A DNA stretch of 64,000 nucleotides from Paraspadella gotoi (taxonomy: Eukaryota > Animalia > Chaetognatha): contig CM119265.1 of the NCBI GenBank assembly GCA_051294375.1, positions 16,714,126-16,778,125 of the forward strand, given 5' to 3'. Position numbers and translations under genes: made by a program. The notes below the pieces were generated by a model. It was not told the DNA's origin and made no database searches. It saw only the letters and a program-made list of their open reading frames with translations. Below, piece by piece: positions 41-27,638 of this stretch (positions are counted from its first letter, which is position 1; each line of letters begins with the position of its first letter).

Positions 41-3000
41 CTCAAATCTTTCGGTAGTTTTTTCCACTTGAGTCATAAGTTTTTCCGCGAATCCTTGGGG
101 ATCGTGCAGGAAATGAAGAGCCGCCGCGTCAAAAGCATCCGATTTCTTTTTCTTTCTTTCTTTTGCCCTTAATTTTGTTCTGGCTCGATCCAATCGTTTT
201 TTTCGCTTCTTTGTATGTTTTCCCACTCGATGAGCCAGGAGCATCTTTATAGTGGATAAAAATAAGCATATAACAGTTGTCTAATTTTACGAATACTTAT
301 TCTGACACGTGAAAAAAAGTACCTGTTGCTCATTTTTGTTCGGCTCATCGTCCTCGTCGCTGTTTTCGCTATCATTTTTGTCGTCATTATCTTGACCCAG
401 AAAAAAGTGAAGGGCGGCAACGAGAACCTAATAATCGCGTCTAATTAAATTAATTTCAACCGGCGTCCTCGTTTCCCGATTCAAGAAAAACCTTCCCTCC
501 CCCCGGTGATTGATTGGGATAAACTCGCCTTTGTAATTGGTGAGAAGCAGGCAGTCGAGATGGCATTGACAGTCTTGGCGTCTCGCCAAACATTCTTTCG
601 ATAAAGTTCTTTCATGATGTCTAGCGAAAGTTTTACGGCTGTGCGATTGTTGTCACTTAACATAGAATACATGAAGTTCTGAAGAAAAAAATTGAAACTT
701 CGTTAATTTTATTTTTTTACGTATATGTTAATTTAAGGCAAAGCACATTGACAATTCTTATTAGAATGCCATATATCTCAAACATAGATTTCAGAAAGGT
801 TTCACTTCAAGAACGTAAACACTACATTAATGAAATTTTATGATCTTTTGAGCAGCCCTTATTCGTCCTTGAAAGTCCTTTAAAAAATGAAAGTGATTAT
901 ACCAAAGTCTGGAGTCCGGTGTGGGTACAAAGAGCTGCTCGAGGGGAGCGGAAAACTAATATTTTGTTTCTTAAATCAAAAGCCGACAGGCACTAACTTC
1001 GCGGACTCGTTCTTTCCCTCCATCTCTCTCTCCCTTTTTCGCTTCCTACGAGATCGTAGTAGATTCGTACGAGCATAAAATCGAGTGAACTGAACTCGTG
1101 TCACTCGACGTCGCAAAAGGCGTTTGGCCCGAATAGACGAAACAGACGAATTATATTTGCTCTCACTTCTCTGTCGAACTCGATCGTTGCTGACATCAAA
1201 ATCAACGAACTTTCGTGTCAACCGTTAAAATTTCCTCTTTTTGTTTTCGGTACAATGATACCAACAAAAGGTAAGAAGCTTCCTTTTTATTTAATATTCT
1301 TAAACAGTTTAAACGTTATCCGTATTTAAATTCAAAGATTGTGGAAAAAAAACTGCCTTCACTGAGGAAACCGATCGGGACTACCTTTGCGGTTGGTTTT
1401 CTGTGAGGCCAAAGGCTTTACAAATCTTCAGAAATGCGAAATGGGCTTTGCTATTTTTGTGCTTGGGTTCAATTTTGGAAGGTCTAGTGGTAAACGGGAT
1501 CGTAAATGTAGTTTTATCTACTTTGGAAAAGGTAGCAATTGTAAAGTATTAATGTTTTAAATTAAAATAAATTTAAAGTGAATAATATCTCCAGAGATTT
1601 AACCTGTCTTCAAGAGAATCTGGGCTCATTCGAGCAACTAACAGTATTTCCCAAATGATAGCAACATTCCCCATAAGCTACTTTGGAGGGAAAGGATCGA
1701 AACCGAAATATTTGGGAATCGGAATCTTGAGCTTGGGCTTAGGTAAGGACCTTAAGTGAAAAATTCTAAATAACATTCACAATATAAATGATTACCAAAT
1801 TATAACACAACGTAGAAACTCAAATTCCCAATCTTTACCGAACTTTAGGGGCGCTTATTTTCACGACACCTCACTTTCTTAGTGACGTCTACTATCCAAG
1901 TGAAACAACTGAGGGTCTCGATTTCGTTCGGCTTTGTAAATCTCAGTGGAACAAATCGTCTGGGTTTGAGAGCAGGTGTACTGCTATATACCGGTTAAAG
2001 TTAACAATTATTTATAATTTCACCCTTTTTATTCAGAAATAAAGAAAGTCACAATCACTTAAAGTATTTATTCTTCTTGGGTCAAATTCTTCATGGAATC
2101 GGTTCGGCACCTTTATGGACTATAGGGGTAACATATTTAGATGACAATCTTCCTTCAAAATCAAGTGCTTTGTACGTCGGTATATTTTACGCATTTGCTG
2201 TCATTGGACCGGCAATAGGCTTTTTAGGTGGTGGTCAGTTATTGAAGGTTGGTAACTCAATTTATATGATAGATACAAAAACATATATAGTTAACTAACC
2301 CTAGGGAAATTCACATACATCAAACATTTTTTCTTTAGATTCATACGGATTTTGACTATATTATAGATTCGCCTATAGATTACAACCATCCTAATTGGGT
2401 AGGACTTTGGTGGATGGGATTTTTACTAGTTGGAATTTTAAGCTTCGTAGTAGGGTATACTCATCTTCATAATAAAAATATTGCTCCTGATTTCAGAATC
2501 TTTAAATTATCAGCTCTACATTATTTTTGCAGGATCATTTTGTTGTCTTTCCCATCAAAGCTACCTGGATGGGAAAGCATTCAAAAACAGAAGTTTGCCG
2601 AAGCCCAGCACCTGGAAAAGCATACATTTATTAAGCCCGATAAAACGTTAACAAAATCTCAAAATATTTTTCATAGAATACTCAAACCATTGTGGACTGA
2701 AATAAAAATACTATCCACAAATTACACTTATCTTTGTATTTGCTTTAATCAAACGACTGAGGGATTAGTTTTTGCCGTCTTTTCTGCGTTTATGCCGAAA
2801 TTTTTAGAATCCCAATTTTTACTTTCTGCCTCTGACGCCGCATTCTACGTCGGAATAATCGTTGTATTTCTCGGCTCGTTTGCAATGGTAATGGGTGGCT
2901 GGATAGTGAAACAATATAGCCTCGGTTGCAAAGCAATTTTACTGCTCATTACATTTACGTCGTTGCTGCAACTACCCCAGGTGCGACAATAAAGACACGG

Positions 3001-5307
3001 TTTAAATTTTGGTATATTAACAAATTAACTTCTACAGATAATGGCGTTCCTATTTATGAGATGCGATGACGGTTTGTTTGCAGGAATAGATTATCCTGTT
3101 CAGTACAAACCGGTAAGCAGTTCAATTCACTATTTACAGCAGAAAATGACCTAATTTGAAATATTAAATCCAATCAATAATTCTAGGAACATATCCCTTC
3201 TTTAAGTGAAAACTGCAATGCAAACTGCAATTGTGGGGATAAATTCGATCCTGTTTGTGGGTCCAACAATGTCCTTTACTTCAGTGCATGCCATGCTGGT
3301 TGTAAAGATGAGAAAAAAGGCACCGGTAAAAACTTTGTTTTTAATTTAAAATTTCACTTATTTAAAATGGACTTGTTTTGTAGACCATACATATTACACA
3401 GAATGCTCTTGCATTCAAAATATCACGTTTGGCAATATATCCAAAGCGGAAAATGGGTTCGCAAAGGTCGGGAGGTGTGACAGAGATCCTTTCTGCAATC
3501 AGAAGCAATTGTATCCCTTTCTATTCCTATTCGCTACTATTATTTTTCCTATGCTTTCTGCAACTGCGCCAGCAATGCAAGCAACACTTCGTTGCGTTCC
3601 AGCGAGGCTAACGTCAATTGCAATAGGGATTCAGGTAATACCGCTAACCTCTAACAATTACAGTAAGACAGACTAAGGCTAAGACTAAAAAGAGAAAAGC
3701 AGGAGGAAGACAGGGAAAAAGAAGGAGGCGGCCAGAAGCCTATGCTCTGATTCACGTACTTTAGTTTGTTTTCACTTTGTTTTTTCACAGTTGGTTATGT
3801 CAAGATCTTTAGGAGCCGTTCCAGGGCCACCCATTTTCGGCTCAATCGTTGATTCAGTGTGCCTTATAAGCCAAACCACTGCTCAAGACGAAGGTCAGTA
3901 TTAACTATGTAATACGTTTTAAGTAATAATTATTACGTGGAAGATAATTAGATAATGTGGACTCAATACATTCTTTAAATTCAAAATTCGTTGCAGAAAA
4001 TGCTTGCGCAATCTATGATCAAAAGAATTTGGGATTACTCATGTTTTTTATTGCGGTTACATGGAAGTTTTTTTCTTTTTTATTTATTTTTGCAGCTTGG
4101 TTCTTTTATAGATCTTTACTCATCAGGTAAAAAAAGAGAGAAATGATCACGTTTATTGTGTATGTAAATAGGATGTAGGGTTTCAGTTAACTTACTTTTC
4201 CCAGAAACCAAATTCAACAAAATGAAAAAGATAACGAAGAAAAAACCGATCAAACGTACGAAGAAAGGAGCGACTACAGTACCCAACTATAAAAAACTTT
4301 ACAATTTTGAATTTACCTGAAGTTGTGTATTCACAGAGTTTTGTTTTCGTTTCGCGTTCATTGTTTTTATATCGTTGATTATATGAGAATAAAGAGCTTT
4401 TCTTAACTCTTTATCTTGGCAACGAAACAACTTGAAAAACAATTCCAGGATGACCCCTATGAGAAATATAAAGAAGTGAATTTCAAGCATATTTTATCAC
4501 AATCTAGGCCAAGTCAAACAAGAAGTAGTTGTGTATAACTCTCCAATCTGCAATCTTTTTCCCTATTGCTTGGTCTTAAACATACACAAACATTACTATT
4601 TCTCCTTCCGTTATCTTTTAACCAACATTCATTCACATAAACAATTCCGCAATATTCATACCGTTTATCCACATTTACTCACAAATACAATTTTAAAATA
4701 TTTATACCAAAACTAAACTATACACACTTACGCATTTAATAAAATTCTGTTATTGTCTCAACTTTTGTCCTGTAACTTCTGACTTGACTCAAATTTAACA
4801 AAAAAAAAAAAAAAGATAAGCGCTTAAGCTATTTTTATTTTTAAGCCCTTATATTCAAACTTCCCCAATGTCATGAAAGTAATTTTTATTACCAGGTTGA
4901 ATGAGACCTTTCCCACGTAAAAGCATTAAAGCTCGGCACATTGTAAATCTTAATTGAGAGTGAATGTTAGCCGAGTGTTGATTCAATATTTCCTTGAGTT
5001 CGTTAGGAAATTCTATCAAAACTTCCGGATAACAATGCGCCACCTGAGGACAAGATCAGATCTGAACTTAGGAGTAAGAATTGCAATAGATAATTTCAAA
5101 AATAAAACCTACTTGAGCCATGAAGGTAATCATTTCGGCTAATTCTTTGGACTCGACATCTGGCTTGATGAAAAATATCTGCAACAAAGCTTGATAATGC
5201 CGATATTGTTGATGAAACTCTTCTTTGTAAGCATCTTTGTCTCTCTTAATCAGATTTTGTAGCTGAGGTAAATTAATGGGAAGCCTGTTATGGTTTTTGT
5301 CTCCCAT
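41..5307 (-). CDS. SDAD1: SDA1 homolog (60S biogenesis factor), multi-exon, 3' end runs off the window start
   Basis: Exons translate to [76 protein letters not shown] and [14 protein letters not shown], all typical SDA1 blocks. Large intron 679-4316; GC-AG intron 428-528. Confidence 0.95.
1255..4292 (+). CDS. Organic anion transporting polypeptide (SLCO4/OATP4-like), ~13 exons, nested antisense in an SDAD1 intron
   Basis: Spliced frame [85 protein letters not shown], Kazal-like [42 protein letters not shown]; ends ..YSTQL-TAA (4290-4292). GT-AG introns keep frame. Confidence 0.92.
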
Positions 5308-5435
5308 GTTCAGTTTCGTTTATAACCTATAGAAACGCAAACATCGTAAACAATAAAATGAAATAAGGCAGAAATTTCAATTATGTAATATGTAATTATG
5401 TATTTATTATTCAAACACTTTTTTGAAGAAAGCAA

Positions 5436-8285
5436 TTAGTCAGAATCATCGTCTTCCTCCTCGCCTTTCAGCCCTCCAAAAACCTCCTTGGGAATTGACG
5501 CCTTTTCAATCTCTATGCGCTTTCCTTTTTTCATAACAGGGGGCTCCTCTTCATTTTCTTCATCCTCGTCAATATCGATCTCCTCTGGGTTGGCGATTGG
5601 TTGCACCCTCTCCTCCAGTTCGTCGTTGGACGTCTCTCCTCTCACGAACAAAATATTTCCGGTTTTCATCTTCTCTGCAGCGTTTTCTTTTCCGGCAGCT
5701 CTTTCTGCTTGTTGCTCCAGCGCTTTCATAGAATCGCCGCCGGAAGAAGCTGCAGCTGCTGCTGCATCACCCGAACCACTCGCGTTGGCCAACATCTGGG
5801 CTGTCATGAAGTTAACTTGCGTGTTGAAGGTGGCTTGGACGCTACGTTTGATCCTCAACATTTCTCTGACGGTGTCCTCGTTGCCGTGAGCCACCTCAAA
5901 GGACTTCCACGTTTCCCAAAAGTCGGTAGCAACACGAGGATCGCACATCTGCGAGCAATGGGCGTAGATGGCTCGCCCGCGATCGATCTCTCCCAATTTG
6001 CGCTCAAGGTCGGCGAAACGCATGCACATGGTAGTTGCCTCTCGCGGCTGCAAAACTTCGATCGCTTTTTCGTAAATCTCCCGCGTGTATGTAACTCCAT
6101 ATATCTCCGCGGCACGCTTCAGATAAATATTAAACATTTCGTACTGCTCTTCTGGCAAAACTGAGGCCGGAGCCCGATCGTAAATAGCCATGGCGTGACG
6201 GGCCATTCCGTGCTCTTCCTCTAGTTTCGCATAAAGCAGGTAAAGTCCTTTCGCAAATTTCGGCGGGACGTCAGCGAGACATTGCTCGAACAAATCGCGA
6301 GCGCGTTCCAATTTTTTGCCGCCGTAACGACCAATGAATTTTGTCAAGTAAGTATTCCAGATGTCGTAAACGTTGGGCCAACGGAAGAGGGACACACCCT
6401 TCTCGTAGGCTTTGAAGGCTTCTTCAAAGTAATGGTTTTCCTCCAGGAATGTCCCGAAGTTCATGATAATCTGCGGAGTGGCGATGCGTAGTTCGATAAT
6501 TTTATCATAAACAGCCTTGGTGGTTTTGAACGTTCCGAACGATTCTTCAAGGTCCGCGTATAGCGACCACAGCTTCAAATTTCTGTAGATCCTATTTTGG
6601 ACGGGTTCCGAGGCATCGTGGTAAGCGGCTCTCGTCTCAGGGAGCGCGGTGGCCCGCCTCATCAGCTTGAGCGCGTCGTCGTAATTCTCGTGGCGAATCT
6701 CCATTTCCGCCCACTCGCTCCAGACGGCCGCCAAATCGTCGACCTGTTTGAAATTGACCAGAATCGCCTTTTCGAAAATTATCCTGGCGTCGTCGATTTG
6801 ATCGTGTTCCTCATAGAATTTTGCGAAGGCCACCCACAAAGTGTTCAGCTTGCCGGTAACAAGAGTAGGATCTACCGTTTGAACGGCTTCGGTGAAAGTG
6901 GCGATCTGCTCGTGAGGTTTTCCTTCGTACAATTTGACGCGTTTGAGCCACTCGGCGACATTGTGCGGGTTTTGCCTGAGAAGCACGCTGTTAAGCAGCA
7001 AGGGTCGTCGATCCATAAGATCTTCCAGTCGAGCGAGGCGCATTTCTAACTCGTTGTCGATCTCAGCCTCATCCTCGGCGCCGACGCTTTCCATACGGCC
7101 GCTGATGACGCCTTCCTCAAACTGGGCGTAAGCGTCGAAGACTTGCGTAAAGTCACGAACGGTAGTCACCGTCTGAATGGCTTCCTCGTAGACGTCGCGA
7201 GCCTTTTCGAAGTTTGCGTTACGAGTGTAGTAATCGGCGAGAGAATTCCACAAGAGACCGATTTGATCCGTAAATCGTTTTATTCCTTGGCGGATAATAG
7301 CATCCACGCGCAGAGACTTCACCTACGGTGACCAAGAACTTTTTTTAAAATTTTCAATCTCAATTAGAAACCATAAATAATAATACGTCCAAAAAGAACT
7401 GACCTTGTCAGGGTTTTTCGTCATCAAGTCACAAAGGTCGTGCCACAATTGATGCTTGCTTTTTCCCTCCTTTGACGTGAACTTTTCGTCGTTGACGATA
7501 TCGCCCATTTTGACAGCAGCCTCGTCAAGGCGATCGCTGGCTACAAGGTACTGGATAAACTCTTCGGCATCTTCCGGACAAAGCTTCATGTAGCGTCGAT
7601 AAACACGCAGACCTAGACTCAAATAAACCACATTCATAATTAACAATTAAACAATAGCTTATTAAGGTTTGTTACCAGTTTCCGGTATTTTGTGCCTCTT
7701 AATGAATTTAATGTATAGGGGCCATATGCGCCTATGTTGAGTGAGCGGAAGCGCACGCAGAGCCCGATCGAAAGTGTGACGCGTGTACGTTATTTTTTCT
7801 TGAGAAACGAGAAACTGACAATACTCCATCCATATTCTTGGCATCTGTGAAAAATTAGTACTTAGTTATATGCTCACTTAAATCCAATAATTTCAAGTGC
7901 ATTTCCGACCTTGTGCATGAAAACGAGAGCCCGTTCGTGCGCATTGTTAACTTCCTCGAAAACTGGATCCGTGATACATCGATTCTTTATTTGATTACGC
8001 CGAAGTTTTAGGTAACTGTACCACAGCTTGTAAGATCCCGGGAGCTCTCGCAAAGCACGCTCGTAAACCTGATCGTTAAGTAAAACGATACAATACACAA
8101 GAGAACGAGTATTAATAAGAACTTAAGTAACCTATATACCATACCATGTTAATAATGTTTGTTGGAGCGTCCTTCTTGTGTTCGATGTATCTAAACCAAC
8201 ACTTGATGGAGCAGGGATTCCGAAGAATTTCTTCCTCATAAGGAATATCATCCTCCTCGAAGATAATGTCCTTTTCCTCATCCAT
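5436..8285 (-). CDS. XAB2: Pre-mRNA splicing factor SYF1/XAB2 (HAT repeats), 5 exons
   Basis: MDEEKDIIFEEDDIPYEEEILRN.., VYERALRELPGSYKLW, MPRIW, GKSKHQLW, LLNSVLLRQNPHNVAEW, YGGKKLERARDLFEQ, HGNEDTVREMLRIKRSV, NPEEIDI. Confidence 0.97.
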
Positions 8286-8404
8286 CGAAGCAACTTTTAA
8301 GTCTTATCTTAAGAGAAACAAAAATTAAGACAAGTTCAACGTAGTTACGGGGATGCAAAGAAATGAATGTTAAATCAAAACGTGAAATCTGAAAACAAAT
8401 GTTT

Positions 8405-11235
8405 CTAGCTGTCCTCGGACTTTTTTGCTCTTTTCTTAGGAGTTGGGTCTTCTTGAACGCTTTCGTCAACCGCATGTCTCTTATCGCCCGCCTTTTCCTC
8501 TTCTCCGTCTCCTTCGCGAAGCCAGTTGACGATCGCTTTAAAACCCTGAACCCCCATCAGCGCGTTGACGAGGGAGTGGAAAGTCGCTTTCTCGCCTTCT
8601 TCCTCAATCCACGTTTTAAGCATCTTGAGACAGTGCTCTTCCGGAGTGCCACCGTCGACCTCGAAGGCAGCCATTTCGTCCTCGGCGAAGTTGAGCTCGT
8701 GACCCAGTTTACGGTACAACTTACCGGTGGATTTTTCTGCGATAGCTTGTAAGAGTTCGATGGTGATGTCCCGTTCCATCCAAGATTTTGCGTCCGCTTT
8801 TTGACCAGATTTCAACAGTTCGTCGTCCTCGTCGACATCGTCGGCAGCAGCACCGTGAACAGCGGTTGATCCGTCCGCAGCGGCGTCGTCGTCCAGTTCT
8901 CCATCTTCTTTCGCCTTTTCTTCGGAACCGCCTTTCTGCAATCGCGATGCAAAGTCTTTTCCGACCTTGACAATGAGCGCCTCCAGACCTTGACTCAGCT
9001 TTTTGTTTTGTTGGTTTTGGTTGGAAGGAGGAGCCCAAAAAAGGTGGCTCTTGCGAGCGAGAAGGCGTAAAGCCCGCCAACACCACCCTTGGTCGTTAAC
9101 GAGTTTGTACTCGTCTTCAATTTGAGCCTCGGGATCCGACTGAAAGAAAAAAATAAATTTTAATTAATAATTACCTAGACCAATGAAATAAAATAATTTT
9201 GGAGCGAACTAACTTTGGAGCCTACTTCCCTGTTTTGTATTAAAAGTTTTATCCAAAAATTTCATTCTACTATTTTCAAGAGAGCAATGAGGACAATTTA
9301 AATTTCCATATTACCTGCTCAACGGCCTCTTCCAAAAACGATTCGAGGGTGGGTAAATAAATTCGGTTCTCACTGGCGCAAGCTTTTAAATTATCGGGTT
9401 CCAAGTTCCAAAGCCTCGTCAATTCGGCAGCACCCATTTTTATCGTTCCATCACCTGAGTAGAAAAAGAGCTACGTATAAGCAAGAGCAAAGGTACTCAG
9501 ATTTAAATCCAGGATCACGCCGCGCGACCTTCCAAAATATCTTCTCCCATAGGTTTTTTCCTCGGTTTTCGAATAATAGGGACGGCGGCGTTGATTTTTC
9601 CCTTGTCGAAAGGAGGACATCCTTCGTTCTTCCAATTGTTCCAAAATTCCTCCCTCGACAAAATATGTTTGACGGACTCGGCAAACTGCTCGCCGTCTGG
9701 TGGAGTTTCCTTTAAAAATAACACGATTAGAAGGGACGCGTTCATCATACAATCCCACATCGTATCTAAATTTATAACTTACCTTAAGAAGGGAATAAAC
9801 TTTTTCAGTCAAGACTGTCACCGCGGCATCCTGCTCTTCGTTGAGAACAAGGTTGGGCAACTTAAACTTGACCGGCGCGTTAAGATATTGAAACACAATG
9901 AGAAGCTGCAACAGGATGTTTCGTCGAAAAGTGGAATCGTTGAGTTGAAGGTCAAGCAGCTTCTCGTTGGTCAAATACTTGGCAAAATAAACGTCATCGG
10001 TAGACCTGTCGGCCGTTCTGCTACTGTTCACTTTTACATCGTCGAGTTTAAAGTTTTCAAAGACCTTTATGACGGCAGAGAGGTGACTGGAGAACAATTT
10101 CCAGTTGTTTTTGTCGTACAATTTGGTGGGTCTGTTGAAAAAGTCTTGAAGAGACCAAAACTTGCGGTATAGGGCGTAATCGACGACGTTATCGGCGTAG
10201 TTCTTCTTCGGTTCGTCGACGACCCCGTCGTCTGCGGCGGAATCCAACTCTCCCTCCTCTTTTTTCGCCGTTGTCGTCGGGGTTTCGCTCTTTGAACTGT
10301 TGTAGATCGTTTTGTTGTCGATGTTGAATTGAGAAACGAGGTTGAGCCCGGACTTCTCCTTCAGCGGAAAGAGGTGGGCCAAAAAAAGTTGAATACGACC
10401 ACAGAAAATCGTGTTCTGTGAGCGGGAGAGTCGACGAAGGAGGTCGTTGCACATGCGTAAAAGGTAGTTCTTGCCCTTATCGAAGAAGACCTCGTGCTTC
10501 CAAGTGTCGACGTGATCTTCGACGAAGCGAAAGAAGGGTTCGCAGTCGGGCAGCGGAGAAGTGTCGAAGATGTCGGACATCATAAGGAACGGGCAGAGCG
10601 GCGAAGCCATGTTCTGCTGGACAGATTGGATGACAAGTGCCATCAGCTGGCGATAAGATTCCTGCTTATTTTTGGTAGAATCTTTGGAACGTAGAATCTG
10701 GTCCAGACAATCGCGAAAAGCCTATAAAAAATTCAGGTGGGAGATGGTAAGCCTACTAAGGTCCTTTAGTAGTGGATATTTATTACAAAATAGTGTTTGG
10801 TAATATAAGAACAAAAAATTCGAATCTATGTTGAGTTTCGCAAGAAAAAAAAAGTTCTGAAACTCATGTAAAAATTTGTAAAAAAATTATTACTCATTCT
10901 TTACTTGAAAAATTATTACTATACAATTATTATTATACAATTTTAGCTCTCATTTGAATGCCATGTGGTATATACTGTTTCCACTATTGGTTTAAAAAAT
11001 GAATAAAACATAATTTTGTCATAAAAAAATATTATGATTATGAGGACCCGCCCTCATGCTCTACCTGATCCATGGCCGTCTTTTTCTCACTCTCCGACAC
11101 TGATTCCAAAACCTCGTAAGAGGCTTGAAGAGGAGACATCTCAAGTTCCGATCTACCTTTAGAAACTTCCAAGCAATCTTGCATAGATTCTGAAAATTTT
11201 GATCTCATAGCCACGAAGCCCATTGCGCTAGCCAT
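8405..11235 (-). CDS. THOC1: THO complex subunit 1 (Hpr1) with C-terminal death-domain-like region, 5 exons
   Basis: [88 protein letters not shown]; C-terminal [23 protein letters not shown]. Confidence 0.95.
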
Positions 11236-18500: not shown

Positions 18501-19909
18501 GTCGTAATTCTCGGTTTGCGGTTCCATCGCCGCGTCGCTCTCGAACTCTAAGCGTCCTATTGAATTTATAAAATTAAAGCTCTAAATACAAAACGGTGAA
18601 AAACAAATGCTGGCGTGAAAAAACGCACCCGGAGTCGCCAGCGCGGATTCAAAATCTTCCTCGGCCAGGTAATCGGGTAGTGATTCACCGCTTTCTGAAG
18701 CCCCGAAGCCCAAATCGGAGGAGCCAGCCCCCAAGTCACCTTGCACGAATCCTCCCCCAGTATCTTCCATCGAGGCTAAATGATGTCAAGAATGAAAAAA
18801 ACATTTTCAAAATATATATACCTTCAAATAAACAGAGCGTGCGGAAAAGAGAAAGCATGAATGTGTGAAACACACTTACCTGAATTTTCGAAATTTTCAA
18901 AGACCGTGTTAGGACATTATCAAACGAAAAAGGTACAACACTGATTTGCTACACTGCACAAGGCACAACTCATTAATTTAGCATCCGAATTCCGGCTTAA
19001 ATCGGAAATGATCAAAATACAAGACTCCTCTTTTTCGAAATATCGAAATGGATAGCGAAGTTCAGATAATTCATATATTCATACAAAAATCATTTTGCTT
19101 ACGTTTAAAAGTAAGGTAGACTTATTTTAATTTTAACTTTAAAATTTGAAATAAAATTATTTGAAAAAATGAAACCATTTCCTCTGGTAAAGGTGATAGC
19201 GTTTACAGTTTGAAAATTTCCTCTCATCAATGTGCAACTGATGTGACAAGAAAACGTGCGAGGTGGGATAAATCATTTCTATTAAAAAAGACCTGATAAA
19301 TCTAGATCAGTGACATCGAATTCGAGTTGAGGCTCATGATCAAATTGTGAGAAGAAAATGGCCTCTTCCGGAGTTCCCTCATGATAGTTGTTGAATTCCA
19401 TGGAGGCGTTACGATCGTTCCAATCTAATTTCTTTCCATAATTTTCCTCATTGGCTCCATCACCATCATAGGTTGCATTCTAGCAAAATTGAATTATTGA
19501 AATGAAAAAAAAATTATATCCATATTCATCTGATTCCCACAAATATCAGAAATATAAAACTCCTAGTTAGAAGACTCTCCCGCCATTTGCGCTGGAATTA
19601 TTAAGGTACGGGATCGAATACACATGTACAAAGTCCAAACACTAAATTCCGGCCTGGGGCCCAGGAACACTTGTTATTAAAGTGACGCATCGGTGCCGGT
19701 AAACGCATCCTACAGTCAGATCCGAGATCCCCAGAGCATGGCAAACTGACGGAAAAGTTTTCTGGGACACAACAAGACACCCCATCTAGTGACGCTCTCT
19801 TCACTATCACATTATTGAATCAAAAAACCACCTGATCTTCGTTTCCACTGGTACTGAATAGGTTGTTGTGACTGTCGTTTCTCAGCGGCGGATTCATTTT
19901 ATTATTCAT
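15584..19909 (-). CDS. ARHGAP1: BCH/Sec14 + RhoGAP protein (ARHGAP1/Cdc42GAP, RhoGAP68F-like); long form from ATG 19909, possible short form from ATG 18770
   Basis: [84 protein letters not shown]; stop TGA at 15584. Upstream exons 19909-19832 and 19479-19293 ([14 protein letters not shown], resembling an insect RhoGAP68F N-terminal motif) join 18775 in the correct phases. Confidence 0.9.
16519..16988 (-). mobile_element. Foreign 470-bp segment replacing the middle of the TRIM 5' LTR; resembles the 3' end of another LTR retrotransposon in reverse orientation
   Basis: Absent from the 3' LTR. Minus strand reads ..[21 protein letters not shown]..-stop (16701), then purine tract GGTGGGGGGA (16663-16654), then TGTGTGG (16653), i.e. 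pol tail-PPT-LTR start order. Family assignment is inference. Confidence 0.5.
16989..17051 (+). ncRNA. 3' portion of the same twister in the 5' LTR (lacks the P5/P2/GA/T1 5' strand)
   Basis: Identical to 17429-17491, including T^AA at 16997-16999, but the upstream strand is replaced by the foreign segment. Confidence 0.75.
17411..17491 (+). ncRNA. Twister self-cleaving ribozyme, type P5 permutation, within the 3' LTR
   Basis: P5 GTTGGC(17411)/GCCAAC(17486); P2 GCG(A)/(C)CGC; conserved GA 17424-25; T1 CCG(17426)/CGG(17472); T^AA 17437-39; T2 GC(17444)/GC(17477); P3 CAGTGAC/GTCACTG; P4 GGG-T-CGG-AAGC-CCC. One A.C mismatch in P2; P1 vestigial. Confidence 0.85.
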
Positions 19910-20387: not shown

Positions 20388-22225
20388 TTATAACACAGTT
20401 GACAAATAGTTTAAATAACCAGGGGATCTGTTCGTCACAAAATCAAGTTCCATGATGCCCTGTTCGGTTTTGACCGCTTCCAACTGGATGATTCTCTTAT
20501 CGATGTAAAATTCGACGGCGCTAAGAAACTCAGCTCGGTCAAAGTAAGGCACTCGTAAAGGATAGAAGGGTTCGACGGCGGCGAACCCTTCGCCACCGAG
20601 AATCTCGGGTGGACTGACGCATTTCCTGTCGAATGGTTTCTTCGTCCTGTTCATGATCCAAGGATCCTCAACAACGTCGGCGTCGACTGAGGCGACAACG
20701 GCACCGCCGCTCCAATCAGAACGAAGCATCTTCTTAAAATTGTGGACTAACGACACGGTATCAGGAGGGACGAATACTTTGGGACTTTGGTCTGGACGAG
20801 GCAACGTCGTCGGAGTCCAAAACAGGTTGATTCCGTCGAGGGAAACGAGGATGTTCGTGGGCTGGGGGAGGACGCGGCGAGTTCTTCGCTTAGAGCATGA
20901 TAACAACTCGCGAGGAATATTAAAATGATAGCATTACCCGGGAACAGTGGGTGGAAAGAAGTCGCAATTCTCTCAAGATCGCTCCAATGCAATCCGAAGA
21001 ATAACGAACCCTGTCGAGCCCAAAATCTATCAATGCGTTCAAATGTGATCCTATTAAAAAAAAAAAAACTTATGAGGCATCCTGATATCGGAAAACAGAG
21101 CGCTACAGCTTAATATTTGAAGCTACAAATTTTTATATTTAAACGCAGCGAAATTGTATCGTTTCGGTCGATTAAAAACGAAGTAAGAATTATCTTTCTG
21201 ATCATCACCTTCGGGCGTCTCTTCTCGCATCGTCCACTTGTAAGTTTTTGTGGTGACGAGATCCTTCCTCGTCGCTAAAATGACGGCGTTTTGAACACGA
21301 AAGTTTCTCAACCAATCGGCGCCCACATAAGGGAGGTCGATACGGCGGTCGTTCCATGAAGAGATTTCTGTCTGTTTGTCCCTCTGATAATTATAAAACC
21401 ATTCAAGAGGCCAAGGCATTTGGACAATAATCCAACCTATCGCGAATTAATTCAAATTTAAGTTTTCCTTTAACTTTTTAAGTAATACGATTACATTTAT
21501 TCTATTAAAAAATGGTGTTCGGTAGAAATCTAAATAATCAGGTACTATGTATTATTTTATTCGTGATTTCAAAGGTAATTGAAGATAGGATTAATCATTA
21601 AAGATAGCTATTACCTATGCTTTACTATTGCAGCTTTCTATCCATATTAACATTGTTATTTATTTCAGAATACAAATTTAGACGGAGCTTTCCAAAAAGA
21701 AAAATTAAAGGGGTTTTGGGTATTAAAACAAATCCAATTTCAACACTACTAGCCTTTAGATGACGCGTAGTGAATTACGCTGTTGAGCGTCATCGTCTTT
21801 CCGGCACCGGGGCTTCCGTAGATCAAGTACCTTCTAGCAGGCTGCTCATAATCAGCCCGAGTCAAACAATCTCGCAATTCCAGGAATGGTCGACGCACCA
21901 TAAAAGCAGCCTCGTTGACCGCATTTATTTGTTTTTGGAATTTAAGGTCGAGGCCATACTGAAATATTTGGTTGTACTTGTCCATAGGAATTGTGTAAAA
22001 CAGTCCGATGTCGGTTTCGTTAAATTCGGCAGGGTCTCTTTTCGAAGTTCGAAAAACGACCGACTTCCTGGGAAGATTAAGGATTTCCGACTCCCGAGCA
22101 TTTTGACGAGAAGCAAATAACGAACTGGATAGGCTCAGGTATCGACTGATCACGTTCAATTTGGAGATTCGAACAATGTTTTCTGCGAACACCGGAACTA
22201 GTGAAAATGTCATTCTTACTGCCAT
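20388..22225 (-). CDS. DAP3: Mitochondrial small-subunit ribosomal protein mS29 (DAP3), 4 exons
   Basis: AFMVRRPFLELRD, RYLIYGSPGAGKTMTL (P-loop), GWIIVQMP, WLRNFR, YKWTMREETPEG, LVSLDGIN, KKMLRSDWSGGAVV, LGGEGF..PFYP. Confidence 0.93.
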
Positions 22226-22360
22226 ATTCTGCAAAATTGAGAAAGGAAGCTTCTGATCGAAACAAAATTCTTTTTTAATCTGAACGAAAAAAAAATTTAA
22301 ACGAAAAACACGGGATAGCTGCTCTTCTGATCAGTTATGAGAATTCATCGATCGCCTGGT

Positions 22361-22867
<507 letters not shown>

Positions 22868-22887
22868 TTACTAACCAAAGGATTTTC

Positions 22888-22940
22888 TCTGACCGACTTA
22901 ATCTTAATCTTCAGTGAAATCAGAACAGCGGTGAGTCAGA
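22888..22940 (-). promoter_or_regulatory. Conserved non-coding stem-loop upstream of RPS20-B
   Basis: Minus-strand blocks TCTGACTCACCGCTGTTC and TAAGTCGGTCAGA are identical to those at 23644-23685; TCTGACT/GGTCAGA closes a stem. Confidence 0.7.
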
Positions 22941-23107: not shown

Positions 23108-23613
<506 letters not shown>

Positions 23614-23643
23614 TGTGGAATCGGTAATTCTCGAGATACAATT

Positions 23644-23685
23644 TCTGACCGACTTATTCAAGGTTTTGAACAGCGGTGAGTCAGA
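23644..23685 (-). promoter_or_regulatory. Conserved non-coding stem-loop upstream of RPS20-A
   Basis: Same two blocks as 22888-22940, with an inner TGTTCAA-AACC-TTGAATA hairpin. Confidence 0.7.
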
Positions 23686-23772
23686 AGGTTTTTAAATAAC
23701 TGTAACAAAAAACACAATATGGCACAAACTAAGTTTCAGTCGACACGAAACGAGTAACAAAAACGGTTTTGT

Positions 23773-25498
23773 TCATCGAGTCCGAAAAATCTTCAAATTA
23801 TTGTCCGCTCCTCCGGTCAACATCAAATCATGAATGGACCAATCAACGGCGAGAATCTTATCCTCGTGTCCGCTCATGTTAAAAAGAGGGGCGTTAACGC
23901 TCCGGAGATCCCAGAGTTTGGCGACAGCGTCGTAGGAGCCGGAGAGCAAGAGATGCTCGTTGGTTGGCGACCACGATACGGAGGAGACCCATCCTGTGTG
24001 ATGAGTCAAAGAACTTTTGACGACTGCTCCCTCGGTGGATCGAGGATCGTAGATTCGCACGTGGCGATCCGTAGAACTGCCGGCTAATAAGTTGTTCAAT
24101 GGCGAGAAAGAGATGTCCGTGAAAACCTTACTTCCTACAAGTTAAAGAACATTCAGGAATTTAACAATCACTGCCACATCAAATATTCCTAAAATATAAA
24201 AATAATTACTAAAAATATTCTATTTATTTGAGTCAGTTATTAACACTAACAGACAATTACAATACTTTTCAAACTTTACAAACTGACCTTGAATGAGTCG
24301 TTCTTCCTTAGCCGTTTCGATGTCCCATATCTTTATAGTGTGGTCCCAAGAGGCTGAAGCGACCTTGGGTCCGTCCATCCACTGGAGGCCCGAAACGCCC
24401 TCGTTGTGAGCGGTCAGGGTCATGAGTGGCGTTCTCGTGTGGAGCCTGGCTTTATCTTCCTTGGCGTCGACTTCGTCAATGGTCTTGGATCGCTTGAATT
24501 TCTTCTTAATTTCCTCCTCCTCTCCCGTTCCTAAGGTTTATCACTTAATTTTCTTCAAACCAAAGTACAAAGAACGCCTCAATTACCTGGCTCAGGTTCC
24601 AAACTCGTGGACCAAATTTTAAGAGTTTTGTCCCAAGAACCAGAGAGGAATCTTGACTTATCACTATTGACACAGACGGCGTCTACACTGCCAGAATGAC
24701 CCCGGCATACGTGCATACGTTCTACTGACGTTTTGTTGAAATCCATTGCCCAAATGATAAGAGTCTGGTCGTGAGCACCACTAAAAAAGGTAAATGAATT
24801 GGGGGGTTAAGTTTGACTCTACTTAATACAAATCGTTACCAGCACATAGTCGTGGTATAACTAAAAATAATTGTACCTGATAAAAGAAGAAACGCCATCG
24901 TTAGTTACGTTAATCCAACCAAGGGATTTTATTGCACCGGAATGACCAGGAATAGTTAGAAGTTTTTCGCCATCCGTGTTCCACACGTTGACCGTGTTGT
25001 CGTAGCAACCACTCAAAATATACCTGACATCATCTAAGAAAATGATAACACTGTGCCGAGGAAGTGGCGTGGACGTTATTCGCCGACTCACCCCTTGTTT
25101 CCGACGACGGCGGCCACCCAATCATCGTGCACCAAACTGTCGTCCGGCTTTGGCGAGGGAAATTTCTCAACATATTCGAGTTCTATCACAGTTTCGGTGG
25201 AGAGGTTTTTGTCGACGAAGCACTGTGACAAAGGGACGCGAAGCAGCTCGCCCTCAAGAAGAAAGTCAAACTCGATGAATCGAAACTCCGCGTCTTCGCC
25301 GGAAATGGCGCTTTCCTCCTGTTCTGCGGCGAATTTTTCCTTCAAAAGACCGTTGATGAGGTTACTAAGCTCGGGAGTTTCCAGCGCGGCGGAAACGGAA
25401 AAAGGCGAATCCGAAACGGCATGCTGAGATTGCTTGGTAAAAAATTTGACTTGGACGTGTGACGCACAGACCTCATCTTTGGGAGGGTCAACTTCCAT
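23773..25498 (-). CDS. WDR12: Ribosome biogenesis protein WDR12/Ytm1 (NLE domain + WD40), 5 exons
   Basis: VQVKFFTK..FDFLLEGELLR..STETVIELEYVE..HDDWV, ILSGCYD, CRGHSGSVDAV, SGSWDKTLKIW, TRTPLMTL..H, SASWDHTI, DRHVRIYDPR..HTGWV, LWDLRS..GHEDKIL. Confidence 0.95.
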
Positions 25499-25627
25499 TG
25501 TTCAATCGGTATTGAAGCTAAATTATAGGAAATACAATGATAGGAATAAAAACAGAAAGTCGTTACAAAGTATTATAAAAATTAGCACCTTGATAAAATT
25601 AAGATGAAATAGGGTAAGATAACACAA

Positions 25628-26665
25628 CTAAGGAAGTTGACTATTTCCTCGGTGACAGCACTGAGAAGGCGGAGCGGTCCAATTGTAATCGTATGAAAGT
25701 CGAGAACGAAACTCTCCCTCCTTTCCACCACATATCGAACCAGTCCATAAAAGATTTTTGTGTTTGAGCCGAAGTTGTTCCAACGACTGCTTGTGGGTCA
25801 CCAAGTAAGCCGTGAAGCATCCTCGAGATTTAAATTCTGTGTCGAATCGCGGGTCATGAACCCGACGAACGTCTAACGGAGCCAACCATGTCCCCATGGA
25901 AACGTCTTCGTTAAAGAACAGGCGGAGTTTCCGGGCGTTTTTTGCCACAAACTCAATGAGGCTCTCCGAGATTACGTAGCCGCCACCCAGCGCGTAAGGC
26001 AGATAGAGGTCGCAAAGATTCCACGTCTTATCCGACCATTTCCCTTTTTTAAAGGGTCTGGCTCGGCCATCGAAAAATCCCCAGTAAAGCCTGGGATGAG
26101 GATCCGTATTGGTCTTCAGTTCATCGACAATGGCGTCGATTCGAGCGAATGAGTCGTCGTCCATTTTGAGGACGTAATCAAAGCGAAGATTTGCGTGGAC
26201 CCAGGCGTACATCCACAACACCTTTCTAGTCAGGTTTGCGTAAGAATCGACAAGGTTCTCCAGGATCAAGAGGTCACCGTATCGTTCAGATTCGATCGTC
26301 AGTTCCTCTTTTGCGGCGGTTGTTAAACCGGCCCCACCGACCACAAAAAGAGTGAGCGAGTCTTTTGGAGACGTCGAGCCATCTCGCAGGGTCATCCACG
26401 TATTTCGAGCAGTGTTTCTCTCTTCTAACTTGCGAGGAGCGCTGATGACGCAGACCAAAAGAACGACGTTTCTCCCGAAGAGCAACGACGAAGCGCTTCC
26501 AGCTGCGTCCTCCAAATCCGGAATTACAGGGAGACGGGACAGAGTAAAGAAACGGAGCGAAAGAAGAAAGGTTAATGGGAGAATTAAGAGCAATATCAAC
26601 TTTTTGGGGAACCGTCTGAAGAAAACGGCGAGAACCAAAAGTAGATTTCTCCATAGCTGGGGCAT
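25628..26665 (-). CDS. B3GALT6: Beta-1,3-galactosyltransferase 6 (GT31), single exon
   Basis: N-terminal TM anchor, DSYANLTRKV, KMDDDSF, LYWGFFDGRA, WNLCDLYLPYALGGGY, EDVSMGTWLAP, HDPRFDTEFKSRGC, SYDYNWTAPPSQCC. Confidence 0.95.
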   Translation of the reverse strand: MPQLWRNLLLVLAVFFRRFPKKLILLLILPLTFLLSLRFFTLSRLPVIPDLEDAAGSASSLLFGRNVVLLVCVISAPRKLEERNTARNTWMTLRDGSTSPKDSLTLFVVGGAGLTTAAKEELTIESERYGDLLILENLVDSYANLTRKVLWMYAWVHANLRFDYVLKMDDDSFARIDAIVDELKTNTDPHPRLYWGFFDGRARPFKKGKWSDKTWNLCDLYLPYALGGGYVISESLIEFVAKNARKLRLFFNEDVSMGTWLAPLDVRRVHDPRFDTEFKSRGCFTAYLVTHKQSLEQLRLKHKNLLWTGSICGGKEGEFRSRLSYDYNWTAPPSQCCHRGNSQLP

Positions 26666-27638
26666 CTGGGCATTTTTGTTGCAAAATAGCAAAGAAAAAA
26701 GGGATTTTTAAGGGAGTTACGCTGAGTGCAAGTGAAAAAACATCAGAATTTAGTTTTTTTAAAATAAGTCTGCGAGATGACGAACTGATGTTATAAAAGA
26801 GCTTCCATGGAACTTGAAAGAGGCTTGGTGCTCGAGACAATGTCAGCTGTGGTCACTCTGGGAGAGTAACACATTGCAAGCCGCCATGTCTCTCCAACAG
26901 AACTCTTTGTTCGATTCTATCGAAATAAAAGCGCGCTCAGTTTAAAACGTGGACTCAGTTCGGAATCGAAACCTAAAAAAGAATGAAAAAATTTAAATTA
27001 GTTACCACAGTCTGTGGCACAGATTAGACAAAGTAAGATGTTTATAAATTTCATTAAAATTTTAACTATTCAAGAAAGCGAGTTTATTAACGGAAAAGGT
27101 AAAATTATTATACACTGACGAAAAATTCTTGGAACTGTTGTAAGGTATTTGTGAACGAGCATGCTTTAACTTTAACAGTAAATCAATCCAATCGGAGACA
27201 AAAAAATTGTGCACGTGTTCGAAATGGAAAAGATTCGAAAGTAAGGAACAATGCCTCTTAGCCGTAGACTCAGCTGCAGCCCAAGCGAGAAGGATGAGGA
27301 ATGAACTGTCTTTTTTGTTTAGACTTTTCTGGCAGGTTGGTCGCCGGATCGTTTGTTCACACAGCTTAGATTGGCTTGTCATGCTCATGGCCGGTCGGAG
27401 AAACAACGCCACCATCAGACCTTTTTTGAATCGAACGCAAATTTAACGATTATTGCGCCCTTTCCCCAATATCTTTTGGTTTGGTTCTTTTTAAAAAATA
27501 AATTAATAAATGCTGTTTTAATATTTATACATAGAAAATAACATGATTGATAAATAATGATAATAATAAATAATAAAATAATAATAATTTTGCAAATTTT
27601 CATTAATTAGATAACACTGACCTGCCCCTCCCAAAATG

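What the first reader, a model, noticed from the sequence alone, without database searches (positions are those of the whole stretch)
41..26667. Operon-like array of 11 co-directional genes with apparently unpaired splice acceptors before start codons
Seen: all 11 non-nested genes are on the minus strand (chance about 1/1000 if independent). An AG, mostly after a pyrimidine-rich tract, lies 0-60 nt before the ATG at 5327 (SDAD1), 8308 (XAB2), 11236 (THOC1), 12625 (POU), 14726 (INTS14), 22229 (DAP3), 22871 and 23630 (RPS20s), 25518 (WDR12) and 26666 (B3GALT6). Stop-to-acceptor gaps are ~96-142 bp at five junctions, with AATAAA/ATTAAA at 5403, 14880, 22274 and 22980, leaving little room for 3' UTR + promoter + non-coding exon + intron. 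Established: nematode and tunicate operons have this layout and are enriched for RNA-processing, ribosome and mitochondrial genes, as here. Inference: polycistronic transcription resolved by SL trans-splicing, notable if the host lineage has no described operons. Caveats: a weak cis donor (AAG/GTGCTA, 25588) precedes WDR12, and the array may be several units.
Basis: partly seen in the sequence, partly recalled or inferred. Interest (0 to 1): 0.8.

Follow-up and report, generated by a model that had tools for sequence, protein, structure and literature searches.

The report
Tight same-strand gene cluster, operon-like
Eleven mostly housekeeping genes sit head to tail on one strand of a compact animal genome and spliced RNA covers every gap examined, but one claimed 'unpaired' splice site is an ordinary intron end, three others do not look like splice sites, and leader trans-splicing at the rest is only predicted, not shown.

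Summary
The array is real. Eleven minus-strand genes lie in 27 kb: SDAD1, XAB2, THOC1, POU, INTS14, an ARHGAP1-like RhoGAP, DAP3, two RPS20 copies, WDR12 and B3GALT6. Six stop-to-AG gaps measure 97-237 nt. Contigs of run X1, which skip 21 GT/GC-AG introns, cover every spacer laid.

The "unpaired acceptor" claim holds only in part.
- The AG before WDR12 (25518) is a cis acceptor. It is joined in RNA to a donor 39 nt after the B3GALT6 stop.
- The AGs before both RPS20 copies and at 26666 score poorly as 3' splice sites. RPS20 leaders run collinear past their AGs, and both copies keep a conserved upstream element.
- B3GALT6 RNA instead begins exactly after a much stronger AG at 26973.
- Five AGs (SDAD1, XAB2, THOC1, INTS14, and DAP3 via a second site) score like or above confirmed acceptors. 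Chance gives this with P about 0.0015.

No spliced leader was seen, and none could have been: only assembled contigs were available, no genome is held, and no SL RNA gene lies in the window. The host is a bilaterian with no annotated close relative. A chaetognath, a phylum with described operons, is my guess only.

Best reading, at about 45%: several co-transcribed units, with SL trans-splicing predicted at the strong AGs. Moderate interest.

The parts
11..5307 (-). SDAD1, 5' part; the gene runs off the window start. ATG at 5307. An OATP/Kazal gene is nested on the + strand at about 2005-3676.
   Evidence: SDA1_HEAT at 11-280. ATG context. OATP/Kazal hits.
5327..5328 (-). AG 19 nt before the SDAD1 ATG. 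Candidate unpaired acceptor. AATAAA ends 76 nt upstream.
   Evidence: Score 3.82, 98.2nd percentile. No good donor in the spacer.
5436..8285 (-). XAB2/SYF1. It includes one 628-codon exon.
   Evidence: Pfam HAT_Syf1 families. Homologs at 69-83% identity.
8308..8309 (-). AG 22 nt before the XAB2 ATG and 97 nt after the THOC1 stop. Strongest candidate acceptor.
   Evidence: Score 7.29, 99.7th percentile. The X1 contig is collinear over 8143-9139. No donor in the spacer.
8405..11235 (-). THOC1 (efThoc1 plus Death domain).
   Evidence: Pfam. Exon 1 is 11235-11065. Relatives share the end of exon 2.
11236..11237 (-). AG abutting the THOC1 ATG, 708 nt after the POU stop.
   Evidence: Score 6.34, 99.7th percentile. 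An X1 contig runs through it to 11214.
11944..12564 (-). POU-homeobox gene, single coding exon. An out-of-frame uATG lies at 12605.
   Evidence: Pfam Pou plus Homeodomain. ATG positions.
12625..12699 (-). Possible 75-nt cis intron in the POU leader (donor AAG|GTTTTT at 12699, AG at 12625). It is unspliced in the X1 contig.
   Evidence: Donor score 4.6. AG score 1.28. The contig is collinear over 11214-13640.
12888..14715 (-). INTS14.
   Evidence: Pfam IntS14 domains and VWA_2.
14726..14727 (-). AG 10 nt before the INTS14 ATG and 154 nt after an AATAAA. uATGs lie 87-107 nt upstream of the AG.
   Evidence: Score 4.54, 98.9th percentile. The X1 contig is collinear over 14359-15478. ATG positions.
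15560..19909 (-). ARHGAP1-like gene (RhoGAP plus CRAL_TRIO_2). The coding end is approximate. There is no acceptor-like AG before its ATG. A repeat is nested in its 1157-nt intron.
   Evidence: Pfam. Nine introns from joints. Best upstream AG scores -6.5.
20388..22225 (-). DAP3 (mitochondrial ribosomal protein S29).
   Evidence: Pfam DAP3. Joints.
22229..22281 (-). Two AGs before the DAP3 ATG: 22229 (3 nt upstream) and 22280 (stronger). The RPS20-1 ATTAAA at 22279-22274 lies between them.
   Evidence: Scores 0.88 and 4.25. ATTAAA position. The X1 contig is collinear over 22100-22482.
22361..22866 (-). RPS20 copy 1: three exons, 122 codons.
   Evidence: Joints. Translation.
22888..22940 (-). 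Element upstream of RPS20-1 that is shared with copy 2: TCTGACTCACCGCTGTTC ... AAGTCGGTCAGA, partly self-complementary.
   Evidence: Alignment. A T/C variant at 22936 sits in contigs of depth 314 and 1023.
23108..23613 (-). RPS20 copy 2: three exons, 120 codons.
   Evidence: Joints. Translation.
23644..23685 (-). The same conserved element upstream of RPS20-2.
   Evidence: Alignment. Fold z-score -3.4 for this copy but 0.0 for copy 1.
23773..25498 (-). WDR12 (NLE plus WD40).
   Evidence: Pfam. Five internal joints.
25518..25588 (-). 71-nt cis intron between the B3GALT6 stop and the WDR12 ATG.
   Evidence: Joint 25517->25589, CT..AC on the + strand, in a 3107-nt X1 contig.
25628..26665 (-). B3GALT6-like galactosyltransferase, single coding exon.
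   Evidence: Pfam Galactosyl_T.
26973..26974 (-). Strong AG 307 nt upstream of the B3GALT6 ATG. The X1 contig ends exactly at 26972. The splice partner was not seen.
   Evidence: Score 8.45, fourth highest of all AGs in 30 kb. Contig piece 25589-26972 ends at the record's last letter.

Best explanation
Eleven same-strand genes lie 97-915 bases apart (stop to next ATG), and spliced RNA contigs cover every spacer examined. The cluster is likely transcribed as a few long co-transcribed units. In these, SDAD1, XAB2, THOC1, INTS14 and DAP3 would receive their 5' ends by spliced-leader trans-splicing at strong AG sites just before their start codons.

Shown directly:
- the gene identities, order and spacing;
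- 21 introns;
- RNA continuity across the spacers;
- a cis intron (25518-25588) that joins the B3GALT6 3' end to the WDR12 leader;
- collinear leaders for both RPS20 copies.

Inferred:
- The five strong AGs are used in vivo, and their partner is an SL RNA rather than a local exon.
- The units are broken at the long spacers (478 nt before the RhoGAP gene, 708 nt before THOC1) and at the RPS20 copies, which carry a conserved promoter-like element.
- B3GALT6 RNA starts at a sixth, RNA-supported acceptor (26973) whose partner is unknown.
For: - Strong AGs. 8308, 11236, 14726 and 5327 score 3.8-7.3. The leave-one-out median of 20 confirmed acceptors is 0.55. All four are at or above the 98th percentile of 1443 AGs.
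- Enrichment. Five of 11 genes hold such an AG within 62 nt of the ATG, against 8.8% expected, P = 0.0015. The four genes that look self-promoted (the RhoGAP gene, both RPS20 copies, B3GALT6 at 26666) lack one. So it is not a generic feature of sequence upstream of an ATG.
- No local partner. There is no acceptable donor in the spacers before XAB2, SDAD1, THOC1 or DAP3, and X1 contigs show no cis joint there.
- Layout. A poly(A) signal lies 45-154 nt before the AG at SDAD1, DAP3 and INTS14, with the ATG 0-22 nt after it. The gap between the RPS20-1 ATTAAA and the DAP3 ATG is 48 nt.
- RNA continuity. X1 contigs bridge the RhoGAP 3'UTR-INTS14-POU-THOC1 start, THOC1-XAB2, RPS20-1-DAP3, and B3GALT6-WDR12-RPS20-2. 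X1 holds 0.67 of the sampled words of 17000-26900, while 0.63 of its 31-mers are wholly non-intronic.
- uATGs occur upstream of the strong AGs but not between AG and ATG.
- Nine of the 11 genes are of the RNA-processing, ribosome or mitoribosome kind. That class is reported as enriched in operons of nematodes, tunicates and chaetognaths (PMC12460157 passages; the nematode and tunicate part is recalled).
Against: - No leader sequence was seen at any AG. In 22100-26800, 5 contigs were laid and the only loose end (23379) is a depth-2 branch inside an RPS20 exon.
- Contigs run straight through AGs 8308, 12625, 14726, 22229, 22871, 23630 and 26666.
- One of the ten AGs is a proven cis acceptor. POU and INTS14 have good donors 75 and 334 nt upstream.
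- The spacers before WDR12, RPS20-2 and RPS20-1 hold 0 ATG in 529 nt (shuffles give 5.2; intron density predicts 7.9, P = 0.0004). That fits leaders that are kept, not removed.
- A contig carrying one allele at 22936, inside a spacer, has depth 314, against 617-1023 for its neighbours (contig depths are a weak measure).
- There is no SL RNA gene in the window: Rfam finds only U5, and two motifs from one published chaetognath SL form are absent.
- It is not known whether the host lineage trans-splices.
- POU is a developmental gene, a class reported as depleted from chaetognath operons.
Confidence: 0.45

Rival explanations
1. There is no trans-splicing. The genes are separate but overlapping tandem transcription units in a compact genome. 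Each downstream gene would start inside the 3' end of its upstream neighbour, with some read-through. The T-rich tract plus AG before the ATGs would be either unused or an occasional cis acceptor, as at WDR12.
For: - The WDR12 leader is cis-spliced from an exon that overlaps the B3GALT6 3' end.
- Collinear contigs pass all the other AGs.
- X2's low-depth contigs start 26 and 30 nt upstream of the RPS20 AGs.
- Both RPS20 copies share conserved upstream blocks that include TGACTCA.
- A TGACGTCA lies in the spacer before the RhoGAP gene.
- The six short spacers hold 2 ATG against 10.0 in shuffles, P = 0.001, while their antisense strand holds 14. This is what 5' leaders look like.
- A compact annelid genome with 66-nt introns was reported to lack SL and operons (PMC7854359 passages). 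Dense packing therefore does not require operons.
Against: - It leaves unexplained why five genes carry an AG stronger than most real acceptors within 22-55 nt of the ATG (P = 0.0015).
- It leaves unexplained why uATGs sit just upstream of those AGs at SDAD1, THOC1 and INTS14.
- Only 48 nt separate the RPS20-1 poly(A) signal from the DAP3 ATG.
- At a contig depth of 146-1023, bridging contigs need only a few per cent of read-through, so they do not favour this reading over an operon.
Confidence: 0.35
2. The cluster is expressed as spliced polycistronic mature mRNAs without a leader. Downstream ORFs (WDR12, RPS20-2, RPS20-1) would be translated from di- or tricistronic RNAs, by scanning or reinitiation through ATG-free spacers.
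For: - One 3107-nt contig carries the whole B3GALT6 ORF, the spliced 71-nt intercistronic intron, WDR12, and the start of RPS20-2.
- Three successive spacers hold 0 ATG in 529 nt.
- The nearest upstream ATG lies 235, 163 and 358 nt before these three start codons.
- There is no canonical AATAAA/ATTAAA after B3GALT6 or WDR12.
Against: - A contig across two genes does not show a single molecule, as the tool itself warns.
- Reinitiation after ORFs of 120-430 codons is inefficient in eukaryotes (established knowledge).
- Ordinary 5' UTRs of 130-240 nt would explain the same ATG depletion.
Confidence: 0.08
3. The orientation and AG pattern have no shared function. They would be chance plus tandem duplication (the two RPS20 copies) in a gene-dense island.
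For: - Three of the ten AGs are no better than random AGs.
- An AG scoring 0.27 or more occurs in about 35% of 62-nt noncoding windows.
- The rest of the window (27-64 kb) is gene-poor and rich in microsatellites. So this is an island, not a genome-wide rule.
Against: - The enrichment of strong AGs has P = 0.0015.
- All 11 genes share one strand (0.001 under independence).
- RNA is continuous across the spacers.
Confidence: 0.1

Closest known systems
Chaetognath operons (Spadella cephaloptera RPS14-PCNA; Paraspadella gotoi genome-wide set)
   Same: Same-strand housekeeping and ribosomal genes with very short spacers. In P. gotoi, operons were called as genes less than 250 bp apart with SL reads on at least one gene, and 18% of genes are operonic. 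Tandem gene duplicates are common there (PMC12460157 passages; PMC2481426 passages). Six of the ten junctions here meet the spacing rule.
   Different: No SL read was seen here. Two motifs from one published 36-nt chaetognath SL form are not in the window. Membership of the host in this phylum is only my guess. A POU gene would be atypical for those operons.
Caenorhabditis elegans SL2-type operons
   Same: A poly(A) signal about 100 nt upstream of a strong 3' splice site that sits a few bases before the next ATG, and enrichment for RNA, ribosome and mitochondrial genes (recalled; reviewed in papers seen only as listings).
   Different: The host is not a nematode: the best named hits are hemichordates, annelids and molluscs. 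The Rfam SL1/SL2 models find nothing. At least four genes in the array do not fit this layout.
Tunicate operons (Ciona, Oikopleura)
   Same: A compact genome and short spacers. XAB2 groups weakly (support 83) with Ciona and Phallusia in a quick tree.
   Different: In those operons the spacers are mostly absent (recalled). No tunicate is among the best 120 THOC1 hits. The tree grouping sits on a branch of length 0.014 and may be long-branch attraction.
Compact animal genomes without operons (Dimorphilus gyrociliatus)
   Same: Median intron 66 nt, short intergenic regions and large UTRs. SL and operons were excluded there by ATAC-seq and 5' k-mer counts (PMC7854359 passages). Introns here are mostly 56-77 nt.
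   Different: The window falls outside the protostome clade in the XAB2 tree (support 97). It has far fewer introns: single exons of 628 and 416 codons.
Conjoined or read-through genes and 5' UTR introns that start in the upstream gene
   Same: The B3GALT6-WDR12 junction. The donor lies 39 nt after the stop. A 71-nt intron is removed, and its acceptor sits 19 nt before the next ATG.
   Different: Only one of the ten junctions shows this in RNA.

Membership tests
SL-resolved metazoan operon | Same-strand genes with short spacers (less than about 250 bp, the rule used for P. gotoi) | tested here: met
   Six of ten junctions have stop-to-AG gaps of 97, 109, 110, 132, 143 and 237 nt. The other four are longer: stop-to-AG gaps of 263 and 708 nt, and stop-to-ATG spacers of 478 and about 900 nt.
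SL-resolved metazoan operon | RNA that spans the spacer (polycistronic precursor) | tested here: inconclusive
   Spliced X1 contigs bridge every junction laid. However, a contig across two genes does not prove one molecule, and a few per cent of read-through would be enough.
SL-resolved metazoan operon | A common non-genomic leader joined at the AG of downstream genes | tested here: inconclusive
   None was seen. Only assembled contigs were available, 83 of 95 loose ends were not listed, and contig assembly is expected to clip short dead-end tips (recalled). It is not met for WDR12 (cis joint) or for RPS20-1/-2 (collinear X2 contigs).
SL-resolved metazoan operon | SL RNA gene(s) in the genome | not testable with these tools
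   No whole genome is held. Within the window, Rfam finds only U5, and two motifs taken from one chaetognath SL form give 0 matches.
SL-resolved metazoan operon | 3' splice-site consensus directly upstream of the downstream ORF, with no cis donor | tested here: met
   Met for SDAD1, XAB2, THOC1 and DAP3. INTS14 and POU have possible donors upstream. Not met for the two RPS20 copies or for AG 26666.
SL-resolved metazoan operon | Host belongs to a lineage that trans-splices | tested here: inconclusive
   The best named hits reach only 69% (XAB2) and 50% (THOC1). The nearest relatives are unnamed metagenome or run-derived proteins. The quick tree places the host outside protostomes.
Cis-spliced 5' UTR intron or conjoined transcript | Donor and acceptor joined in RNA | tested here: met
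   Joint 25517->25589 skips 71 nt with GT..AG on the minus strand, contig depth 207. This applies to WDR12 only.

The most novel reading that the evidence does not exclude
This animal may express part of a tight gene cluster (B3GALT6-WDR12-RPS20-RPS20) from spliced polycistronic mature mRNAs with no spliced leader. An intercistronic intron is removed, and ATG-free spacers would let ribosomes reach the downstream ORFs. That would be an operon mode not described for metazoans.
Probability: 0.08. Interest if true: 0.75.

Novelty: new member of a known kind. Interest (0 to 1): 0.4.

Why it matters
If the five strong AGs are SL acceptors, the window holds two or three small operons of the nematode, tunicate or chaetognath type. 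They would sit in a bilaterian whose proteins have no annotated close relative.

In a phylum already known to trans-splice, this is routine annotation. In one that is not, it would add another independent origin of operons.

The more useful result here is the split inside the array, which gives a concrete, testable map:
- one proven cis junction (WDR12);
- two RPS20 copies that look self-promoted;
- one RNA-supported acceptor with an unseen partner (26973);
- five unpaired strong acceptors.

It also shows that co-orientation plus an AG before the ATG over-calls operons.

Tried and rejected
- Whole genome. None is held, so no SL RNA gene search was possible.
- The look-up of sequencing runs. 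No RNA holder is listed on record. X1 is labelled 'RNA?' as a guess. I treat it as holding spliced RNA only because its contigs skip GT/GC-AG introns.
- Read laying. Contigs cannot show starts, ends or rare leaders. One search listed only 12 of 95 loose ends and 15 of 37 joints. The region below 7500 (the SDAD1 junction) was never laid.
- Loose-end strings. Seven strings, 12 were searched in the window and none was found. They look like repeat or paralog branches, not a leader.
- Repeat at 16458-17540. I considered it as an SL hub and rejected it. The shared part exceeds 100 nt, it has two internal direct repeats, and no GT follows it.
- Chaetognath SL sequences. A script holding two printed forms gave no answer. 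Two motifs from one form gave 0 matches.
- Metagenome scan with a THOC1 alignment. 80 loci came back, but the longest-segment identities are at most 58% and none holds a neighbouring gene of the array. So there is no comparative test of the junctions, and the nearest relatives seen were not returned.
- Earlier scan notes. None exists for this genome or for look-alikes. One unrelated rotifer note came up.
- Protein atlas. It gave no taxonomic help.
- Supplementary tables of PMC12460157 (operon lists). The xlsx is too large to read, and the one PDF searched holds nothing relevant. They may bear on whether this array is already listed.
- Annelid host (Dimorphilus). Rejected: the XAB2 tree excludes the lophotrochozoan clade, and there is no near-identical protein in the database.
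- Tunicate host. Weak tree support only, and no tunicate among the THOC1 hits.
- Contig depths were used only as hints. The tool warns that they cannot rank genes.

Full report
WHAT IS THERE

The first 27 kb of the window holds 11 genes on the minus strand (Pfam):
- SDAD1 (runs off the window start)
- XAB2/SYF1
- THOC1
- a POU-homeobox gene
- INTS14
- a RhoGAP plus CRAL_TRIO_2 gene (ARHGAP1-like)
- DAP3
- two tandem RPS20 copies, of 122 and 120 codons
- WDR12
- a B3GALT6-like galactosyltransferase

An OATP/Kazal gene is nested on the + strand inside SDAD1. The remaining 37 kb gave almost no Pfam hits (1 weak hit in 25 ORFs) and is full of GA/TC microsatellites. It holds a U5 snRNA gene. The array is therefore a gene-dense island.

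CHECK OF THE OBSERVATION

Each of the ten listed coordinates is the G of an AG, with the ATG 0-60 nt downstream.

I built a 3' splice-site matrix from 20 acceptors confirmed by RNA joints and scored all 1443 other AGs on this strand.
- Four candidates score 3.8-7.3, at or above the 98th percentile: 8308 (XAB2), 11236 (THOC1), 14726 (INTS14) and 5327 (SDAD1). The leave-one-out median of real acceptors is 0.55.
- Three are middling, at the 91st-94th percentile: 12625 (POU), 22229 (DAP3) and 25518 (WDR12). DAP3 has a better AG at 22280, scoring 4.25.
- Three are no better than random AGs: 22871 and 23630 (the RPS20 copies) and 26666 (B3GALT6).

In 6072 nt of noncoding control sequence, an AG scoring 3.8 or more falls in a 62-nt window with probability 0.088. 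It occurs before 5 of 11 genes, P = 0.0015.

The stated gaps and poly(A) signals are correct.

RNA EVIDENCE

One run (X1) holds 0.67 of the sampled words of 17000-26900. 0.63 of that stretch's 31-mers are wholly non-intronic. X1's contigs skip 21 introns with GT/GC..AG ends on the minus strand, so they contain spliced RNA.

The contigs bridge the genes:
- One 4059-nt contig runs from the RhoGAP 3' UTR (15478) through INTS14, the 263-nt spacer, POU and the 708-nt spacer, to 22 nt inside THOC1.
- One contig covers 8143-9139, from the THOC1 end to the XAB2 start.
- One 1931-nt contig joins RPS20-1 to DAP3.
- One 3107-nt contig joins B3GALT6, WDR12 and the first two exons of RPS20-2.

The contigs pass AGs 8308, 12625, 14726, 22229, 22871, 23630 and 26666 with genomic sequence on both sides.

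The AG at 25518 is different. It is joined to 25589, skipping 71 nt with GT..AG ends. It is a cis acceptor whose donor lies 39 nt after the B3GALT6 stop.

No leader-like loose end was listed at any AG. In 22100-26800 the only loose end is a branch of depth about 2 inside an RPS20 exon.

These are assembled contigs, with clear limits:
- The tool warns that they show presence, not absence.
- A contig across two genes is not one molecule.
- From what I recall of the assembler behind such contigs, short dead-end tips are clipped. A short leader would then vanish wherever a collinear path exists.
- One search listed only 12 of 95 loose ends.

The RNA data therefore neither show nor exclude a spliced leader at the strong AGs.

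TWO CLASSES OF GENES

Class one comprises the two RPS20 copies, WDR12, the RhoGAP gene and B3GALT6 (at its 26666 site).
- The RPS20 copies share two conserved blocks upstream, TCTGACTCACCGCTGTTC (which contains TGACTCA) and ATAAGTCGGTCAGA, in otherwise diverged spacers.
- Low-depth contigs of a second run (X2), identical to the window, begin 26 and 30 nt upstream of the RPS20 AGs.
- A contig carrying one allele at 22936, inside the spacer, has depth 314, against 617-1023 for its neighbours (a weak measure).
- The three spacers B3GALT6>WDR12, WDR12>RPS20-2 and RPS20-2>RPS20-1 hold no ATG in 529 nt. Shuffles give 5.2, and intron density predicts 7.9 (P = 0.0004).
- All six short spacers together hold 2 ATG, against 10.0 in dinucleotide shuffles (P = 0.001). 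Their antisense strand holds 14.
- The RhoGAP gene has no acceptor-like AG. It has a 478-nt upstream spacer holding TGACGTCA.

These genes look as if their leaders are retained genomic sequence.

Class two comprises XAB2, SDAD1, THOC1, INTS14 and DAP3.
- Each has a strong AG 0-22 nt before the ATG. For DAP3 it is the alternative site, 55 nt before.
- XAB2, SDAD1, THOC1 and DAP3 have no good donor in the spacer.
- SDAD1, THOC1 and INTS14 have uATGs just upstream of the AG.
- SDAD1, DAP3 and INTS14 have poly(A) signals 45-154 nt before the AG.
- Only 48 nt separate the RPS20-1 ATTAAA from the DAP3 ATG.

These are the real "unpaired acceptor" candidates.

The B3GALT6 contig ends, with no further letters, at 26972. 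That is directly after an AG scoring 8.45, the fourth best of all AGs in 30 kb. The depth bin upstream is accounted for almost wholly by that contig plus one contig of depth about 8. The abundant RNA thus begins at a splice acceptor whose partner I could not see.

HOST

- The best named XAB2 hits are hemichordates, annelids, a brachiopod and echinoderms, at 67-69%. One unnamed run-derived protein reaches 83%.
- The best THOC1 hits are unnamed metagenome proteins at 69-74% that end at the same exon boundary. The best named ones are bivalves and vertebrates at 48-50%, with no tunicate in the 120 listed.
- A quick XAB2 tree puts the window outside a 25-row protostome clade (support 97). It groups weakly (83, branch 0.014) with two ascidians, on a long stem. 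There was no non-bilaterian, chaetognath or xenacoelomorph in the tree.

The host is a bilaterian without annotated close relatives. Its genes have lost most introns: single exons of 628 and 416 codons. Two of 21 introns are GC-AG.

A chaetognath would fit: an unstable position in single-gene trees, tandem duplicates, and operons called at less than 250 bp (PMC12460157 passages). This is a guess. Nothing here tests it.

MECHANISM

My best reading (0.45) is a mosaic. It has several co-transcribed units separated at the long spacers and at the RPS20 copies. SL trans-splicing is predicted at the five strong AGs. A cis-spliced, upstream-overlapping leader is shown for WDR12.

The main rival (0.35) is that there is no leader at all. 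The genes would be overlapping tandem units with read-through. The ATG-free spacers, collinear contigs and promoter-like motifs fit this. The excess of strong AGs does not.

A bolder reading (0.08) is leaderless polycistronic mature mRNAs. Pure chance is 0.1.

COMPARISON AND VERDICT

The layout of the class-two junctions matches SL operons of nematodes and chaetognaths. The defining feature, the leader itself, is untested. Four to five of the ten junctions fail or do not need that model.

I rate this a probable new member of a known kind, of moderate interest. The decisive test, raw-read soft clips at six named coordinates, is cheap.

Noticed in passing
window 16458-17540 (inside the 1157-nt RhoGAP intron 16424-17580): A repeat element with two internal direct repeats (16458-16518 = 17291-17350; 16991-17100 = 17431-17540). 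X1 contig depth reaches about 23,000, with many variant contigs diverging at its edge (17103). It looks like a highly transcribed, high-copy non-autonomous element. Its ORFs have no Pfam hit.
   Followed up: partly
window 26972-26974: The B3GALT6 RNA contig ends exactly after a top-scoring AG (8.45), 307 nt upstream of the ATG. The resulting leader holds 5 uATGs. The upstream partner exon or leader was not seen. Strong donors lie at 27621 and 27929.
   Followed up: partly
window 22888-22940 and 23644-23685: The two tandem RPS20 copies keep two identical upstream blocks (18 and 14 nt, partly self-complementary, containing TGACTCA), while the rest of the spacer has diverged. Only copy 2 folds better than shuffles (z = -3.4 against 0.0).
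   Followed up: partly
window 23379: A low-depth X1 contig shares 30 nt of RPS20-2 exon 2 and then runs on for more than 255 unlike letters. This is probably a further RPS20 paralog elsewhere in the genome, or a chimera.
   Followed up: no
window 18177-18253 and 21437-21753: Two of the 21 RNA-confirmed introns are GC-AG, an unusually high share. Most introns are 56-77 nt long.
   Followed up: no
window 55306-55421 (-): A full-length U5 spliceosomal snRNA gene (93 bits) in the gene-poor half of the window.
   Followed up: no
window 2005-3676 (+): OATP (SLCO) exons with a Kazal domain lie on the opposite strand, nested inside an SDAD1 intron.
   Followed up: no
window 34000-62200: Dozens of long GA/TC microsatellites, and a short TTAGGG-like run at 30737-30787. 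Large ORFs here have no Pfam family, apart from a weak TPR hit at 38148-39503.
   Followed up: no
window 12564-12625 and 11236-11265, 5327-5344: Short uORFs lie in or next to the leaders. POU has an out-of-frame uATG at 12605. In THOC1 and SDAD1 a uATG opens a 9- or 5-codon frame that ends at the TAG containing the candidate AG.
   Followed up: no
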